Assembly: GCA_020726025.1 (NCBI GenBank)
Contig: DYTH01000001.1
Location: 102 to 64,101 of the forward strand
DNA: 64,000 nt
From: Syntrophus aciditrophicus
GTDB lineage: Bacteria > Desulfobacterota > Syntrophia > Syntrophales > UBA5619
Direction: 5' to 3'
Of the stretch, positions 1 through 28,019 are shown in pieces (position 1 is the stretch's first letter; each line of letters opens with the position of its first letter). The position numbers and the translations under genes are program-made. The notes beneath the pieces are model-generated. The model worked only from the letters and a program-made list of their open reading frames with translations, did not search any database and was not told the DNA's origin.

Positions 1-398
1 TCGCAACCCATGGAAATCTGGGGAGCGAGCTTATCAAAGCGGCTGAAATGATACACGGCGCCATGAAACTCGTTACGCATGTTTCCGTAAGCCAGGACAA
101 AGGCGTGGAAGAGATCAAAAAGGAGATCAGCGTCGGGATCAAAAAGCTCGATCAGGGACAGGGCGTTCTGATATTGACCGATCTTTTTGGCGGAACGCCT
201 TCAAACCTCTCGTTGTCGTTTCTGAAGCCCGGAAAGGTGGAGGTTGTAACCGGCGTGAATCTGCCGATGCTCCTTAAGATGACGGAAATCCAGGACAGCA
301 GCAAAACCCTCGAGGAGTTTGCCCACTGTCTCAAGGAGTATGGAATAAAAAATATCTCCCTGGCCTCGGAAATACTCGGCAAGAAATTTAGCGGATAA
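1..398 (+). CDS. PTS EIIA component, mannose/fructose/sorbose family (5' end cut by window edge)
   Basis: The frame is open from nt 3 (ATHGNLGSELIKAAEMIHGA...), so the ORF-track Met at 48 is internal. It has a THG phospho-His region and the LILTDLFGGTPSN motif typical of EIIA-Man. Confidence 0.8.
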   Translation, partial: ATHGNLGSELIKAAEMIHGAMKLVTHVSVSQDKGVEEIKKEISVGIKKLDQGQGVLILTDLFGGTPSNLSLSFLKPGKVEVVTGVNLPMLLKMTEIQDSSKTLEEFAHCLKEYGIKNISLASEILGKKFSG

Positions 399-403
399 AT
401 ACA

Positions 404-904
404 TTGCACCCATCTTTGGACATAGCCCTGGTCAGGGTTGATAACCGTCTTGTGCATGGTCAGATACTGGAAGCCTGGATACCCTATATCAAGGCGGATT
501 GCATCATTGTCGTTGACGATTTGACAGCCTCCGATATGTTCAGGGAAACGGTCATTCGCATGGCTGTTCCCCGGGAGGTGGAGGTTGTGATCTGCGATGT
601 GGACGAGTTTGTAAAAACGATCCCTTACCACAAAGGAGACGGGCGCAGGACCATCGTTCTTTTTGGCGCTGTAGCGTCCGCCCGCCGGGCTTTCGAAAAC
701 GGTTTCCGCTTCACCCGGCTTAACATCGGCAATGTTTACAACGACTCCTACACGGTTTGCTGCACCCCTTCTGTTCTTCTGAGTGAAAACGACATTCACG
801 ATGTGACCTTTCTTCGTGATGCGGGCGTGAGGATTGAGTTGCGGCGAGTACCCAGGGAAAAGCCTGTCGATTTTTTCGAAGCGGTTCGCAGCGTCAAAAT
901 GTGA
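404..904 (+). CDS. PTS EIIB component, mannose/sorbose family
   Basis: VRVDNRLVHGQ matches the phospho-His motif of EIIB-Man (RIDDRLIHGQ type). The start is TTG at 404, or TTG at 416, which gives MDIALVRVD. It follows the EIIA stop by 5 nt. Confidence 0.8.
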   Translation: MHPSLDIALVRVDNRLVHGQILEAWIPYIKADCIIVVDDLTASDMFRETVIRMAVPREVEVVICDVDEFVKTIPYHKGDGRRTIVLFGAVASARRAFENGFRFTRLNIGNVYNDSYTVCCTPSVLLSENDIHDVTFLRDAGVRIELRRVPREKPVDFFEAVRSVKM

Positions 905-970
905 CATCAGGCAAGCGCCATCTTGCAGCTTCGATGCTTTCAGCAACAAAAAACCGGTGAAATTAATTAA

Positions 971-1669
971 ATGATTACGGATGTTATCATTGTATCGATA
1001 GTCGGCGGCATTTTCTGTCTGGATCGTGTTTCCGTACTTTTTATGGTATCACGACCCATCGTCGCCGCGCCGACCATTGGGTTTCTTCTTGGAGACGCCT
1101 ACACTGGCCTTGTTGCCGGCGCATTTATTGAACTGCTCTGGATAGACCGTCTGCCCATCGGGATGTATCAGCCTCCCAACGATACGATAACCGCCATTCT
1201 CATTGCCGCTTCTTCCATTGAAGCCGGGCGTCTTTTTGGCGCCATGCCTGATTCCCTGATCGTCCTTTCCGTTCTTCTTTTTGTCCCGTTCGGCCTGCTT
1301 GCCCAGAAAATGGACCGTTATCTTGTAAAGACCAACGAAAAACTCGCGGAACAGTTTATCGAAGATGTGAAAAATGGCCATTCGGAACATATTGCCCGGA
1401 GGCACCTTACCCCTCTTTTCAAGACGTGGGCATATTCCTCCGGATTCATGTTCGTTGCGCTTTTCATCGGGATTGCGCTGCTGAGTTTTTCCTATCCTCT
1501 TCTTCCCGGATGGTCGATTCGCGGGCTCGAGCTCTTTCATCCGATGATTCCTCTTGTCGGCACGGCGGTCGCCCTTAACTCCATCAACGCGCGGGGGGCA
1601 TTGCCGGTTTTCAGCGGCGCTTTTCTCTTGGGATCCTTTTTATTTCATTACCTCAAGGAAATGGGTTGA
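971..1669 (+). CDS. PTS EIIC component, mannose/sorbose family (membrane)
   Basis: 232-aa polytopic membrane protein. The N-terminal segment GGIFCLDRVSVLFMVSRPIVAAPTIGFLLGD resembles EIIC-Man. It sits directly after EIIA/EIIB. Confidence 0.7.
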   Translation: MITDVIIVSIVGGIFCLDRVSVLFMVSRPIVAAPTIGFLLGDAYTGLVAGAFIELLWIDRLPIGMYQPPNDTITAILIAASSIEAGRLFGAMPDSLIVLSVLLFVPFGLLAQKMDRYLVKTNEKLAEQFIEDVKNGHSEHIARRHLTPLFKTWAYSSGFMFVALFIGIALLSFSYPLLPGWSIRGLELFHPMIPLVGTAVALNSINARGALPVFSGAFLLGSFLFHYLKEMG

Positions 1670-1672
1670 CGG

Positions 1673-2218
1673 ATGAAAGCGAAGCTTAATGTTCACAAAA
1701 CGGAGTTTAATGTTCACAAAGCGAAGCTTAATGTTCATAAAACGGAGCTCGATCTTTACAGATATGCATTCATTGACGAGGGAAACTGCTCGCCGCAAGA
1801 TCTCGATGATATTGTAGAAATCGAAAAGGATTCGTTTTCCTCGCCCTGGTCCAGGGCTCTTTTTTCCGCCGAGTTGAAGAACCCGATCTCCCGAATTCTT
1901 GTCATGAAAACACTGCATCAGGACAGGGAAACCATCGCTGGTTACGCCGTTTACTGGCTTGTTGCCGACGAACTGCATCTGCAGAAAATCGCCGTCCGCA
2001 GGGAAATGCGAAACCGTGGACTGGCCGCAGCGATTTTGCGGGAGGCGTTTGCAGTTTCGTCGTCGCAAAATATCATGAAAGCGACGCTCGAGGTTCGCGC
2101 ATCCAACCTGCCGGCTTATCATCTCTACCGTAAATTCGATTTTTCTGTTAAGGGGAAGCGTCTCCGATATTACGACGACACAGGCGAAGATGCGCTCATC
2201 ATGTGGCGTGATCTTTAA
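1673..2218 (+). CDS. rimI: Ribosomal-protein-alanine N-acetyltransferase (GNAT) with a repeat-encoded N-terminal extension
   Basis: DLDDIVEIEKDSFSSPWS aligns with the E. coli RimI N-terminus. GNAT acetyl-CoA motif LQKIAVRREMRNRGLAAAIL. ATG 1673 is the only in-frame ATG/GTG/TTG before the conserved core. Confidence 0.75.
   Translation: MKAKLNVHKTEFNVHKAKLNVHKTELDLYRYAFIDEGNCSPQDLDDIVEIEKDSFSSPWSRALFSAELKNPISRILVMKTLHQDRETIAGYAVYWLVADELHLQKIAVRREMRNRGLAAAILREAFAVSSSQNIMKATLEVRASNLPAYHLYRKFDFSVKGKRLRYYDDTGEDALIMWRDL
1679..1741 (+). repeat. Three tandem 21-nt units of a dispersed repeat (GCGAAGCTTAATGTTCACAAA / ACGGAGTTTAATGTTCACAAA / GCGAAGCTTAATGTTCATAAA)
   Basis: Read directly from the sequence. 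The period is exactly 21 nt and the units are in frame with rimI (heptads AKLNVHK/TEFNVHK/AKLNVHK). Confidence 0.95.
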
Positions 2219-2262
2219 AAAGAGGGACATCCGTTAAGCAGACGATAGAGGAACAGGAGACT

Positions 2263-14775: not shown

Positions 14776-14876
14776 CGTCATTCCGGTGAAAACCGGAAAG
14801 CGAAGCTTAATGTTCATAATCCAGAGATTTCAACGCGTTACATAAACACTGGACACCGGTTTTCACCGGTGTGACG
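14776..14876. repeat. REP/MITE-like element: 21-bp inverted arms flanking a ~59-nt core
   Basis: Left arm CGTCATTCCGGTGAAAACCGG (14776-14796). Right arm CCGGTTTTCACCGGTGTGACG (14856-14876). The arms are complementary at 19 of 21 positions. The right arm supplies the spurious GTG 'start' (MTTFYESIN) of the MFS ORF. Confidence 0.7.
14800..14820 (+). repeat. Single copy of the 21-nt dispersed unit (GCGAAGCTTAATGTTCATAAT), nested inside the inverted-repeat element
   Basis: Matches unit 3 of the rimI array at 20 of 21 positions. Confidence 0.9.
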
Positions 14877-26457: not shown

Positions 26458-27792
26458 TCATTCATGCGGCATCGACAGGCTTGCGCCGATTTTGCGGGCA
26501 ATCCGGCGAACCTGTTCCATGACTTCATTTTCGTCGATTGTTGTAAGGCGTCGATTCTTCATGACAACCTTTCCATTGATGAGGACTGTCTCCACGTCGG
26601 CGCCGCTTACGGCGTAGGCAAGGTGGGAATATTCGTCGTACATCGGCGTGAGGTGCGGTTTGTTCATGTCGAGGATAGAGATGTCAGCCTTTTTGCCGAC
26701 CTCGATGGTTCCGACGAGATCGCCCATCCCGAAAACCTTCGCGCCGTTTGCGGTTGCCATCCGGATGACTGTCTCCGCGGACATGACCCTCGGGTCGAGA
26801 CGTGCCGATTTTTCCAGTTTTGCCGCCGTATCCATCTCCTGAAACATATCGAGGTTGTTGTTGCTGGCGCATCCGTCCGTTCCAAGCCCGACGGTTATCC
26901 CCTTTTTGAGCATCGCGGAAATGGGGGCCACGCCGGAGGCAAGTTTCATGTTGCTTTCGGGGTTATGCACCACCTTGCAGCCGTAATCGGCAAAGATGGC
27001 AATGTCTTCGTCATCCATGACGACGCCGTGAAACGCGATAAAACGCTCATCGAGAATACCGGCCTGTTCAAGAAATTTTGTCGCGCGCATGCCGAACTTC
27101 TTTTCCAGTTGAACGGCTTCATTCATGTTTTCGAGAAGATGGGTGGCAAAGGGGACGCGATAACGATCGGCCAGCTCCCTGGCCGATTGAAGCAGGGCGG
27201 GCGAACAACTGTAGAGGGAATGGGGTTCCACCATCGTTCTGATAAGCGGGTCGTCGGCCCATGTCCTGATGAGATTCTCCGCACGAATCAGACACTCGGC
27301 AGGCGTTTTGCAGGCCGGCGATGGGAAATCGAAAAGGCCTTCCCCGATGATGCAGCGCATACCGGCCTGTTTGGCGGCGCGGGCCGTTTCTTCCTCGAAG
27401 AGGTACATGTCGGAAAAGGTCGTCGTTCCCGATTTGATCATTTCCGCGCAGGCAAGCAGGCTGCCCCAGTAGGCCAGCTCCGGATTTACATTACGGGATT
27501 CGGCCGGGAAGATATACCGGGTGAGCCAGTCCATAAGCTCCATGTCGTCGGCAATTCCCCGGAAGCAGGTCATCGCGGCATGGGTGTGGCCGTTGATGAG
27601 CCCCGGCATGATGATGCTGTGGGGATTGTCTATTGTCTCTTTTGCGGTGTACATACCCAGCAGCTCTTTTTTGTCTCCCACGGCGACAATTGTATCTCCC
27701 GTGACGGCGACAGCCCCTTCATGCAGTTTTACATTGTCCCGATTCAGCGTCAGGACCGTTCCCCCCGTAATCAAAATGTCCGCGGATTTCAT
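26458..27792 (-). CDS. mtaD: 5-methylthioadenosine/S-adenosylhomocysteine deaminase (amidohydrolase)
   Basis: DILITGGTVLT N-terminus, metal-binding LINGHTHAAM, and HLLE, HGV and GTDG motifs of the MtaD/ATZ-TRZ amidohydrolase group. Confidence 0.8.
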   Translation of the reverse strand: MKSADILITGGTVLTLNRDNVKLHEGAVAVTGDTIVAVGDKKELLGMYTAKETIDNPHSIIMPGLINGHTHAAMTCFRGIADDMELMDWLTRYIFPAESRNVNPELAYWGSLLACAEMIKSGTTTFSDMYLFEEETARAAKQAGMRCIIGEGLFDFPSPACKTPAECLIRAENLIRTWADDPLIRTMVEPHSLYSCSPALLQSARELADRYRVPFATHLLENMNEAVQLEKKFGMRATKFLEQAGILDERFIAFHGVVMDDEDIAIFADYGCKVVHNPESNMKLASGVAPISAMLKKGITVGLGTDGCASNNNLDMFQEMDTAAKLEKSARLDPRVMSAETVIRMATANGAKVFGMGDLVGTIEVGKKADISILDMNKPHLTPMYDEYSHLAYAVSGADVETVLINGKVVMKNRRLTTIDENEVMEQVRRIARKIGASLSMPHE

Positions 27793-27806
27793 TCAGATAG
27801 CTCCCT

Positions 27807-27827
27807 ATTGTGAACATGAAACTTCGT
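27807..27827 (-). repeat. Copy of the 21-nt dispersed unit on the minus strand (ACGAAGTTTCATGTTCACAAT), 15 nt upstream of the mtaD ATG
   Basis: Reverse complement read directly. It is preceded by ATGAAA and followed by AGGGAG, the mtaD SD. Confidence 0.85.
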
Positions 27828-27977
27828 TTTCATCAGTGCCGGGGCGTATAGCAAAAAAATGAATGGGCCTCAATCAATTAATTTATTCATGCACGATGTG
27901 AAGCGATGAGCCCTGTGCGATCTCATCAGGTCATGATCACTCTGCCATGGGACGCGGCAATCTTCTCTTCAGAGAAA

Positions 27978-28019
27978 GCGAAGCTTCATGTTCACAAAAC
28001 GAAGCTTCATGTTCACAAA
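27978..28019 (+). repeat. Two tandem 21-nt units (GCGAAGCTTCATGTTCACAAA, ACGAAGCTTCATGTTCACAAA) upstream of dtd
   Basis: Read directly. Exact 21-nt phase, ending 58 nt before the dtd ATG. Confidence 0.95.

What the first reader, a model, noticed from the sequence alone, without database searches (positions are those of the whole stretch)
1673..1745. Tandem 21-nt repeats form the translated 5' end of rimI (heptad extension MK-AKLNVHK-TEFNVHK-AKLNVHK-TELD)
Three exactly phased 21-nt units (1679-1741) begin 6 nt after ATG 1673. That ATG is the only ATG/GTG/TTG in frame before the conserved GNAT core. If rimI is expressed, the repeats are therefore translated as a ~30-aa N-terminal extension, which E. 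coli-type RimI lacks.

The same unit occurs at three other places in this window: 14800, 27807 (minus strand) and 27978-28019. So this is a dispersed element that has been recruited as, or has inserted into, a gene start, rather than an old part of RimI. A 21-nt unit is 7 codons, so copy-number changes stay in frame. That allows length-variable N-termini.
Basis: seen in the sequence. Interest (0 to 1): 0.6.

Follow-up and report, generated by a model that had tools for sequence, protein, structure and literature searches.

The report
Mobile 21-base repeat inside rimI start
A 21-base sequence that has copied itself to many places in Syntrophus-type genomes landed just after the start codon of the rimI gene and multiplied there, so the enzyme very probably carries a floppy, strain-variable tail of 7-amino-acid repeats; the same thing has happened at the start of at least five other genes.

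Summary
Three exact 21-nt units (1679-1741) plus a degenerate fourth (1742-1762) follow ATG 1673. That ATG is the only canonical in-frame start before the GNAT core of a bona fide rimI. Orthologous loci with the same gene order carry 0, 0, 1, 3, 3, 4 and 4 units between a conserved ATG-AAA and a conserved TAT-xxx-TTY core. Three alleles occur among strains whose RimI is >98 % identical.

The unit, AAARCGAAGYTTAATGTTCAY, is a short interspersed repeat specific to Syntrophus/Syntrophales. It inserts precisely between G and AAW, without a target duplication and without terminal inverted repeats. It sits exactly 6 nt after the start codon of five further genes, inside carA, at gene 3' ends, at three sites of one MITE family (each seen empty and filled), and inside an ISH6-family IS end. 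Intergenic copies show no orientation bias, so a promoter role is not supported.

The unit begins with the d(GCGAAGC) mini-hairpin motif, and positions 1 and 7 co-vary. AlphaFold predicts the heptads as a disordered tail. How a 21-mer is mobilised remains unknown. Novelty: new variant of a known kind.

The parts
1673..1678 (+). Ancestral rimI start ATG plus codon 2 (AAA). The G|AAA here is the insertion target.
   Evidence: ATG lies 4 nt after the IIC stop in all six orthologous loci. The empty sites read ATG AAA TAT (L002) or ATG ATC TGT (L005).
1679..1741 (+). Three intact 21-nt units: GCGAAGCTTAATGTTCACAAA, ACGGAGTTTAATGTTCACAAA and GCGAAGCTTAATGTTCATAAA. They encode AKLNVHK, TEFNVHK and AKLNVHK.
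1742..1762 (+). Fourth, degenerate unit ACGGAGCTCGATCTTTACAGA (TELDLYR). Its 3' half is shared by the window, L001 and L004.
   Evidence: Unit-by-unit layout and alignment A1.
1763..2218 (+). rimI core (GNAT fold), starting with beta-1 YAFI.
   Evidence: TIGR01575 114 bits; Pfam Acetyltransf_1; AlphaFold pLDDT above 90 from residue 30; matches to PDB 2CNM and 5ISV.
971..1669 (+). Upstream PTS sorbose-type IIC gene. Its stop TGA (1667-1669) lies 3 nt (CGG) before the rimI ATG and is in frame with it.
   Evidence: PF03609; conserved synteny in L001, L002, L003, L005 and L086-L088.
14797..14820 (+). Single unit (AAA GCGAAGCTTAATGTTCAT AAT) inserted at a CCGG|AAT site of a MITE-like hairpin element.
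   Evidence: The same filled context occurs in L016, L022, L028 and L038.
14777..14875 (+). MITE-like element hosting that unit. Its inverted ends are GTCATTCCGGTGAAAACCGG and CCGGTTTTCACCGGTGTGAC.
   Evidence: Read directly from the sequence; related elements appear.
27807..27830 (-). Single unit (AAA ACGAAGTTTCATGTTCAC AAT) ending 14 nt upstream of the mtaD-like amidohydrolase start. It is preceded by ATG, which creates a 14-codon upstream ORF.
27975..28019 (+). Two-unit array ending 57 nt upstream of dtd.
   Evidence: In a strain 99.7 % identical (L089) the second unit has G instead of A at position 1.

Best explanation
The repeats are copies of a short interspersed repeat found in the Syntrophus lineage, with the 21-nt unit AAA-RCGAAGYTT-AATGTTCAY.

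**Insertion.** The unit is copied precisely into sites of the form G|AAW. It creates no target-site duplication and has no terminal inverted repeats. The very common gene start ATG-AAA contains such a site. In an ancestor of this strain, one unit landed between codons 2 and 3 of rimI (ATG AAA | TAT).

**Amplification.** The array then grew and shrank in steps of 21 nt. This happened either by replication slippage or unequal exchange between units, or by re-insertion at the G|AAA site that each insertion regenerates at its 5' side. The state here is four units.

**Consequence for RimI.** The unit is 7 codons long and stop-free in this frame, and the only usable start codon lies upstream of it. 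RimI is therefore made with a 28-residue, Lys/His-rich tail in front of beta-1 of the GNAT fold. The tail is predicted to be disordered and its length differs between strains. It is most likely a tolerated passenger rather than an adaptation.

**Status of each step.** Shown: the repeat family, its target, the empty and filled sites, the copy-number variation, and the intact reading frame. Inferred: translation of the tail, its neutrality, and the way the unit is mobilised. For mobilisation I favour a single-strand DNA process that exploits the d(GCGAAGC)-type mini-hairpin at the unit's 5' end.
For: **(1) Orthologous series.** The same IIC-rimI junction carries 0, 0, 1, 3, 3, 4 and 4 units with identical flanks. 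Three alleles occur within a cluster more than 98 % identical. One of them (P0126) equals the window minus its 5'-most unit.

**(2) Lineage-specific dispersed family.** A scan of 185,579 species genomes was capped at 80 loci. Most hits are in Syntrophus/Syntrophales MAGs, including dozens from one bin. Single hits in unrelated taxa occur at about the rate I estimated for chance.

**(3) Target.** Position -4 is G in 80 of 87 non-redundant arrays, and positions -3 to -1 are A in 82-85 of 87. In one MITE family, three different G|AAT sites each exist empty (4, 7 and 7 copies) and filled (10, 4 and 5 copies). The filled versions carry exactly +21 or +42 nt, and the 5' junction is always GAAA, so this is not a duplication.

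**(4) Other genes.** The same event, in the same frame and exactly 6 nt after the start, occurs in radA, a GFO/IDH/MocA oxidoreductase (2 units), an AAA_14/DUF4143 ATPase, a class-V aminotransferase and an AI-2E transporter. There is also a 7-aa in-frame insert inside carA and a 4-unit C-terminal array in a DUF188 protein. All hosts were verified by Pfam.

**(5) Start codon.** No alternative canonical start exists, and the ancestral ATG is conserved.

**(6) Structure.** AlphaFold gives pLDDT below 50 for residues 1-25 and above 90 for the core (pTM 0.80).

**(7) Hairpin.** The unit starts with GCGAAGC, a DNA mini-hairpin with Tm 76.5 C (PMC13037366). Positions 1 and 7 are G-C in 58 copies, A-T in 28 and mismatched in 4 (Fisher 8e-19).
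Against: - Translation of the tail has not been observed. Frame preservation is automatic for a 21-nt unit and is therefore not evidence of selection.
- The position 1/7 covariation could be two sub-families related by descent rather than a structural constraint.
- Nearest-neighbour folding gives only -1.7 kcal/mol, no better than shuffles. The review states that such models miss this motif.
- No mobilising enzyme was found. No HUH/Y1 transposase homologue occurs in about 0.6 Mb of fetched DNA. That test is weak: the queries were recalled from memory and the genomes were sampled only around hits.
- Many copies sit inside MITEs that may themselves have multiplied, so independent insertion events (at least 16 distinct sites) are fewer than copies.
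- Copy numbers come from short-read assemblies, and two contigs break at or in the array (L004, L088).
Confidence: 0.75

Rival explanations
1. The units are cis-regulatory sites: an operator for a DNA-binding protein, a promoter built from adjacent units (TTCACA-N17-CAYAAW), or a 5'-UTR RNA element. On this reading their presence in the rimI 5' end reflects regulation rather than insertion of a selfish repeat.
For: In the window, all three intergenic loci point the same way as the downstream gene and lie 14-94 nt from the start. Adjacent units do create a weak -35/-10-like pair, as read from the sequence. A 21-bp period equals two helical turns.
Against: - In the larger sample, orientation relative to the neighbouring gene is random (12 sense versus 11 antisense upstream of starts).
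- The consensus promoter scan finds nothing at 1400-2000.
- The rimI site is not conserved: close relatives carry 0-4 units.
- Units occur inside carA, at gene 3' ends, inside MITEs and inside an IS end.
- Predicted mRNA structure around the start does not differ consistently between filled and empty sites.
Confidence: 0.08
2. The repeats are not translated. RimI initiates at a non-canonical codon downstream (for example ATT 1772, which aligns with Met-1 of E. coli RimI), or rimI is inactive in this lineage. On this reading the array is only spacer or 5'-UTR between IIC and rimI.
For: ATT 1772 (residue 34) aligns with residue 1-2 of solved RimI. Translation was not measured.
Against: - Relatives without units start at the same ATG, two codons before the conserved Y-x-F-(I/L)-D strand. 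That strand would be cut off by a start at 1772.
- The SD-like AAGGA and the 3-nt gap (CGG) between the IIC stop and the ATG are conserved.
- Five other genes show the same arrangement with no alternative start, for example GFO/IDH/MocA, where the Rossmann motif follows immediately.
- The rest of rimI is intact and conserved.
Confidence: 0.1
3. The heptad tail is an adaptive, selected peptide module attached to several unrelated proteins, for example a basic RNA- or ribosome-binding arm, or a localisation or stability tag. Copy number would tune its function.
For: The same peptide frame (A/T-K/E-L/F-N-V-H-K) sits at residue 3 of six unrelated proteins. The tail is Lys/His-rich, and RimI acts on a ribosomal protein. 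Both substitutions in the first unit of L001 are synonymous.
Against: - The position and frame are explained by the G|AAA target in ATG-AAA together with loss of insertions that introduce stops.
- The host proteins have nothing in common: RimI, RadA, an oxidoreductase, an aminotransferase, a membrane transporter and an ATPase.
- Most copies are non-coding.
- Other frames are used elsewhere (KRSLMFI in carA).
- Close relatives do without the tail.
- The tail is predicted to be disordered.
- Two synonymous changes are too few to count as evidence.
Confidence: 0.05
4. The 21-mer is a footprint, the fused ends left after excision of a larger transposon, or an assembly artefact.
For: Two contigs end at or in the array (L004, L088).
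Against: - In 0.54 Mb, left and right halves of the unit are essentially always contiguous. The few orphans are degenerate whole units, and no split element exists.
- The same array is found in independent NCBI, JGI and Logan assemblies.
Confidence: 0.02

Closest known systems
Rickettsia palindromic elements (RPEs)
   Same: Both are a selfish interspersed repeat that inserts in frame into protein-coding genes and is carried along as extra peptide without destroying the host protein. This description of RPEs is from my own knowledge (Ogata et al. 2000); the MITE review PMC10969869 came up in the literature search but was not read.
   Different: RPEs are about 100-150 bp, palindromic and single-copy per site. 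This unit is 21 nt, has only a 4-bp mini-hairpin, forms tandem arrays, and shows a defined G|AAW target.
Mycobacterial interspersed repetitive units (MIRU-VNTR)
   Same: Both are dispersed minisatellite-like units found as tandem arrays whose copy number varies between strains. Both often lie at gene junctions inside operons, where they stay in frame with or overlap the flanking ORFs (own knowledge; Supply et al. 1997).
   Different: MIRUs are 40-100 bp and essentially intergenic. They have no known precise single-unit insertion target and no mini-hairpin.
REP/BIME elements mobilised by RAYT (HUH Y1) transposases, and IS200/IS605 peel-and-paste transposition
   Same: All involve a short hairpin-containing unit next to a conserved 5' flank, no target duplication, many copies, and clustering into arrays.
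   Different: REPs are about 35 nt with a long imperfect palindrome and a GTAG flank, and they are extragenic. Here the stem is 4 bp, the flank is G|AAA, copies enter coding DNA, and no Y1 transposase gene was found in the DNA fetched.
d(GCGAAGC) mini-hairpin motifs at phage G4/ssiA priming sites and N4 early promoters
   Same: The unit begins with exactly this heptamer (G-C variant), extended by A-T pairs (AAGC-GAA-GCTT). The review reports Tm 76.5 C for the heptamer (PMC13037366).
   Different: The known examples are single functional sites in phage or plasmid origins and promoters. They are not a dispersed, coding-compatible repeat family. The A-T variant (ACGAAGT) lacks the outer G-C pair that the review calls essential.
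Simple-sequence contingency loci (phase variation)
   Same: Both are a hypermutable tandem repeat at the 5' end of a gene with strain-to-strain copy-number change.
   Different: Contingency repeats have unit lengths that are not multiples of 3 and switch genes on and off. This unit is 7 codons, so it changes tail length only.

Membership tests
RimI (ribosomal protein S18-alanine N-acetyltransferase, TIGR01575) | Scores above the curated equivalog cut-off over the full model, with a GNAT fold. | tested here: met
   114.3 bits against a cut-off of 86.4, model positions 1-132 on residues 43-177. Pfam Acetyltransf_1. PDB 2CNM and 5ISV matched. AlphaFold pTM 0.80.
MITE | Terminal inverted repeats and a target-site duplication. 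| tested here: not met
   The unit ends (AAAGCGAAG... and ...AATGTTCAT) are not inverted repeats. Empty G|AAT becomes GAAA-unit-AAT in all 19 clean filled copies of the host MITE family, so there is no duplication.
REP/REPIN-RAYT | An imperfect palindrome of about 20-40 nt that forms a hairpin. | tested here: inconclusive
   Only a 4-bp stem plus a GAA loop is present. Positions 1 and 7 co-vary (58 G-C, 28 A-T, 4 mismatched), but the predicted dG is -1.7 kcal/mol.
REP/REPIN-RAYT | A conserved GTAG-type 5' tetranucleotide and extragenic location. | tested here: not met
   The flank is G|AAA. Copies lie inside rimI, radA, carA and other genes.
REP/REPIN-RAYT and IS200/IS605 | A cognate HUH Y1 transposase gene in the genome, typically flanked by the repeats. 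| tested here: inconclusive
   There were no phmmer hits at E<=10 among 3,647 open frames of the window and loci. The queries were recalled from memory and the genomes were sampled only around hits.
MIRU-type dispersed VNTR | The same unit at many loci, as tandem arrays with strain-variable copy number. | tested here: met
   109 arrays or singletons, with array sizes 1-5 and up to 6. rimI alleles carry 0-4 units.
MIRU-type dispersed VNTR | Unit length of 40-100 bp, located in intergenic spacers of operons. | tested here: not met
   The unit is 21 nt. Many copies are inside ORFs, MITEs or an IS end.
Rickettsia palindromic elements | In-frame insertion into ORFs that remain intact. | tested here: met
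   Six N-terminal, one internal and two C-terminal cases occur in Pfam-verified genes.
Rickettsia palindromic elements | A palindromic consensus of about 100-150 bp, restricted to Rickettsia. | tested here: not met
   The unit is 21 nt and the hosts are Syntrophales.
Phase-variable contingency locus | A change in repeat number shifts the reading frame or the promoter spacing. | tested here: not met
   The unit is 21 nt, that is 7 codons. All alleles stay in frame.
Xer/dif-like site | A 28-bp dif-type sequence with XerC and XerD arms. | tested here: not met
   The S. aciditrophicus dif TTGTCCTATAAGATATATTATGTAAACC (PMC2731167) does not resemble the unit.

The most novel reading that the evidence does not exclude
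The 21-mer may be the smallest mobile DNA unit yet seen in bacteria: a 'micro-transposon' consisting of little more than an ultra-stable d(GCGAAGC) mini-hairpin plus a 12-nt tail. On this reading it is copied in trans, by an unidentified single-strand DNA enzyme or by hairpin-induced template switching, into G|AAW sites. Because it is exactly seven stop-free codons long, it would systematically add heptad peptides to protein termini (especially after ATG-AAA) across a whole bacterial lineage.
Probability: 0.3. Interest if true: 0.8.

Novelty: new variant of a known kind. Interest (0 to 1): 0.55.

Why it matters
**Annotation.** In Syntrophus-type genomes, odd repetitive N-termini such as MK(AKLNVHK)n are real insertions behind the true start codon and should not be trimmed. 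The longer antisense shadow ORF across the array should not be called instead.

**Mobile DNA.** A 21-nt sequence with no inverted ends and no target duplication is nevertheless found precisely inserted at 16 or more distinct G|AAW sites. The sites include coding DNA, MITEs and an IS. This is below the size at which known transposition mechanisms are thought to work, and it points to an undescribed way of copying DNA. The extraordinarily stable GCGAAGC mini-hairpin may be involved.

**Protein evolution.** This is a natural, ongoing experiment in adding short disordered peptide modules to protein termini. It resembles the Rickettsia palindromic elements but uses a much smaller, tandemly expandable unit.

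**Strain typing.** The arrays change between strains more than 98 % identical at the RimI protein level, so they could serve as VNTR-type markers for uncultured syntrophs.

Tried and rejected
- **Promoter or 5'-UTR function.** I suspected this because the window's intergenic units all point toward the downstream gene. I rejected it because orientation is random in the larger sample and the consensus scan found no promoter.
- **Effect on translation-initiation structure.** Filled and empty sites show no consistent difference.
- **Xer/dif-like site.** The unit does not resemble the published S. aciditrophicus dif.
- **HUH/Y1 transposase nearby.** None was found, but the test is weak.
- **Conserved 'promoter-unit-RNA' locus (L015, L026, L031, L041, L063).** This turned out to be the right end of a multicopy ISH6-family IS, not an RNA gene.
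- **Rfam.** Only the tRNA at 14532-14616 matches in the window.
- **Protein-database search for heptad arrays.** It returned only four short spurious ORFs over intergenic arrays. Single or double heptads are too short to score against 5.8 billion sequences.
- **Viral origin.** Three viral contigs share one unrelated phage sequence that lacks the GAAA flank.
- **Metagenome scans anchored on the IIC-rimI junction.** One scan returned nothing and the other returned one unrelated hit.
- **Footprint of a larger element.** No split half-units exist.
- **18-nt element plus 3-nt AAW duplication.** Rejected because empty GAAT becomes GAAA...AAT.
- **Literature.** The unit string is absent from the searchable full text, and no paper describing such a repeat in Syntrophus was found.

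Full report
**1. The observation**

Tandem Repeats Finder reports a period-21 array at 1676-1749. That is 7 matches against 0.03 expected from dinucleotide shuffles. A profile built from 64 units finds no other full copy in the window.

The ORF 1673-2218 is rimI. It scores 114 bits on TIGR01575 against a cut-off of 86, and the model begins at residue 43. It also matches Pfam GNAT families.

ATG 1673 follows the stop of a PTS sorbose-type IIC gene after 3 nt (CGG). It is the only ATG/GTG/TTG in frame before TTG 1874 and ATG 1904 (residues 68 and 78), which lie inside the conserved core. Residue 1 of the solved Salmonella and E. coli RimI structures aligns with about residue 33. Every factual statement in the finding is therefore correct.

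One refinement applies. The 'TELD' after the third unit is the start of a fourth, degenerate unit (ACGGAGCTCGATCTTTACAGA, TELDLYR, 1742-1762). The array is 4 x 21 nt, and the RimI core resumes at TAT GCA TTC ATT (YAFI).

**2.

A protein search and exact look-ups recovered the same locus from related uncultured Syntrophus-type genomes. The gene order is the same in all of them: pyrG, PTS IIA, IIB, IIC, rimI, pyrK, pyrD. Aligning the junction gives this series:

| Locus | Nucleotide identity to the window | Units | Reading |
|---|---|---|---|
| L002 | ~85 % | 0 | ATG AAA TAT GTC TTT CTT GAC |
| L005 | ~85 % | 0 | ATG ATC TGT GAA TTC CTT GAC |
| L003 | ~88 % | 1 | ATG AAA [GCGAAGCTTAATGTTCATAAA] TAT AAA TTC CTT GAC |
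| L001 | 94 % | 4 | AKL-AKL-TEF-TEP* |
| Window, L086, L087 | 99.9 % | 4 | AKL-TEF-AKL-TEL* |
| P0126 | same >98 % protein cluster | 3 | TEF-AKL-TEL* (the window minus its 5'-most unit) |
| L004 / P0001 | 99.6 % | 3 | TEF-AKL-AKL* |

More distant Syntrophales RimI proteins have no units.

The ATG, the IIC stop just before it, and an SD-like AAGGA are conserved throughout. The ATG is therefore the ancestral start. The units are an insertion behind it, and their number and order change even between nearly identical strains.

**3. What the unit is**

Most loci are from Syntrophus/Syntrophales MAGs, and dozens come from a single bin. Isolated single hits in unrelated taxa occur at about the rate I estimated for chance in 596 Gb.

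Listing all copies with flanks and re-scanning the loci gave 109 sites: 95 singletons and 14 arrays of 2-5 units. Arrays of up to 6 units appear in the protein database.

The 5' flank is strongly conserved. Position -4 is G in 80 of 87 non-redundant sites, and positions -3 to -1 are A in 82-85 of 87. Single units end in AAT (48) or AAA (28).

Many copies are nested in MITE-like elements built from GTCATTCC(C/G)G hairpins. In one such family, three different G|AAT positions each occur both empty (4, 7 and 7 copies) and filled (10, 4 and 5 copies). The filled forms carry exactly 21 or 42 extra bases, and the 5' junction reads GAAA, not GAAT.

The inserted sequence is therefore the 21-mer AAARCGAAGYTTAATGTTCAY, placed between G and AAW. 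There is no target-site duplication, and the unit has no terminal inverted repeats. Left and right halves of the unit are never found apart, so it is not the footprint of a larger element. The unit also lies 42 nt inside the right end of a multicopy ISH6-family insertion sequence found in several species.

**4. rimI is not a special case**

The unit lies exactly 6 nt after the start codon, in the same A/T-K/E-L/F-N-V-H-K frame, in five further genes:
- radA (L007)
- a GFO/IDH/MocA oxidoreductase (L014, two units, followed directly by the Rossmann motif IRIGVVGTGHLG)
- an AAA_14/DUF4143 ATPase (L017)
- a class-V aminotransferase (L076)
- an AI-2E transporter (L065)

It also forms a 7-residue in-frame insert (KRSLMFI, the second open frame) in the amidotransferase domain of carA (L057). 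It forms C-terminal additions in a DUF188 protein (L049, four units) and in the L014 oxidoreductase. All hosts were verified with Pfam.

The A-variant of the unit is stop-free in three of six frames. The ATG-AAA and ATG-GAA starts contain the G|AA target. Target preference, combined with loss of disruptive insertions, is enough to explain the pattern.

In non-coding DNA, orientation relative to neighbouring genes is random (12 sense versus 11 antisense upstream of starts). The agreement seen in the window is therefore chance, and a promoter or 5'-UTR role is not supported. The consensus promoter scan is also negative, as is Rfam.

**5. A structural clue**

The unit begins with GCGAAGC, the heptamer that forms the extraordinarily stable GAA-loop DNA mini-hairpin. 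The review reports Tm 76.5 C and states that conventional thermodynamic models do not account for it (PMC13037366). That explains the unimpressive -1.7 kcal/mol from ViennaRNA.

With the conserved upstream A's, the stem is AARC/GYTT. Positions 1 and 7 are G-C in 58 copies, A-T in 28 and unpaired in only 4. This is what a hairpin constraint predicts, but a single double change inherited by two sub-families would look the same.

A hairpin next to a conserved flank, with no target duplication, recalls REP/RAYT and IS200/IS605 single-strand transposition. However, no Y1 transposase was found in the roughly 0.6 Mb available (a weak test), and the stem is far shorter than in any REP. How the unit is copied remains unexplained.

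Each insertion regenerates a G|AAA site at its 5' side. Repeated insertion could therefore build arrays, as could slippage or unequal exchange. The mixed unit types within arrays and the P0126 allele fit either route.

**6. Consequence for RimI**

AlphaFold with a 38-sequence alignment gives a confident GNAT core from beta-1 (R30-I34; pLDDT above 90; pTM 0.80). Residues 1-25 have no structure (pLDDT below 50).

The predicted product is a normal RimI with a 28-residue Lys/His-rich flexible tail. Predicted mRNA structure around the start does not differ consistently between filled and empty alleles. Nothing suggests that the tail is adaptive. Close relatives lack it, and the other host proteins are unrelated to RimI.

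**7. Comparison with known systems and novelty**

In behaviour, the closest systems are these:
- Rickettsia palindromic elements (in-frame invasion of genes)
- MIRU-type dispersed VNTRs (variable tandem arrays at gene junctions)
- REP/BIME elements (a hairpin unit with a conserved flank)

The unit fails defining features of each, as it does for MITEs, contingency loci and dif sites (see the membership table). The unit string and a description of such a repeat in Syntrophus were not found in the searchable literature.

I rate it a new variant of a known kind, namely short interspersed repeats that tolerate or exploit coding DNA. There is an open possibility, about 0.3, that its mobilisation mechanism is new.

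**8. Verdict**

The finding generalises from one gene to a lineage-wide 21-nt repeat family with a defined insertion site. Interest 0.55.

Noticed in passing
window 27789-27833 (- strand): The single unit upstream of the mtaD-like amidohydrolase is preceded by ATG-AAA. This creates a 14-codon upstream ORF (MKTKFHVHNRELSE) whose TGA stop overlaps the mtaD start codon (ATGA). The mtaD Shine-Dalgarno (AGGGAG) lies inside this small ORF. It could couple or interfere with mtaD translation.
   Followed up: partly
window 14777-14875; also L008, L016, L022, L028, L038, L055 and others: Several families of MITE-like elements are built from GTCATTCC(C/G)G...C(C/G)GGAATGAC hairpins. One hairpin reads ATTCCCGCGCAGGCGGGAA, which from memory is almost the same as the Neisseria dRS3/NIME repeat. 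One family has ends GGTAATTGCAAAAC...GTTTTGCAATTACC. They are the commonest hosts of the 21-mer.
   Followed up: partly
L015:1-160, L026:280-460, L031:1-555, L041, L063: A multicopy ISH6-family insertion sequence (NF041731, transposase C-terminus) is shared by several Syntrophales species. It carries one 21-mer 42 nt inside its right end (...TGGAGCGCATTATTCCAGGTCTCCTATTGACAACGCTACCAA|), just downstream of a TTGACA box. It could be a vehicle that spreads the unit between genomes.
   Followed up: partly
window 1640-2230 (- strand): The antisense frame of the unit (FVNIKLR) is also open. This gives a 196-aa shadow ORF that is longer than rimI (181 aa). A length-based gene caller picks the wrong strand here, as my own crude caller did.
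   Followed up: yes
window 1667-1675: The IIC stop codon TGA is in the same frame as rimI (TGA CGG ATG), so stop-codon read-through would fuse IIC to the heptad-tailed RimI. The 3-nt spacing between stop and ATG is conserved in all relatives and suggests translational coupling.
   Followed up: no
window 48-1669 and relatives L001, L002, L005: Mannose/sorbose-type PTS IIA, IIB and IIC genes are present without a IID gene. They are conserved between pyrG and rimI-pyrK-pyrD in all Syntrophus-type relatives, which is an unusual neighbourhood for rimI. In many bacteria rimI sits with the tsaB/tsaE genes (own knowledge).
   Followed up: no
window 1686-1705 (any unit-unit junction): The junction of two units (AAUGUUCACAAAGCG) shares the octamer UCACAAAG with the classical E. 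coli 'downstream box' AUGAAUCACAAAGUG, recalled from memory. This is probably coincidence. The rRNA-pairing model for that box has been discredited (from memory), and I could not check the Syntrophus 16S rRNA.
   Followed up: no
window 27978-28019 versus L089:2106-2147: In a strain 99.7 % identical overall, the second unit of the dtd-upstream array has G instead of A at unit position 1. This turns an unpaired A..C unit into a paired G..C unit. It is a single observation and is compatible with gene conversion between units.
   Followed up: partly
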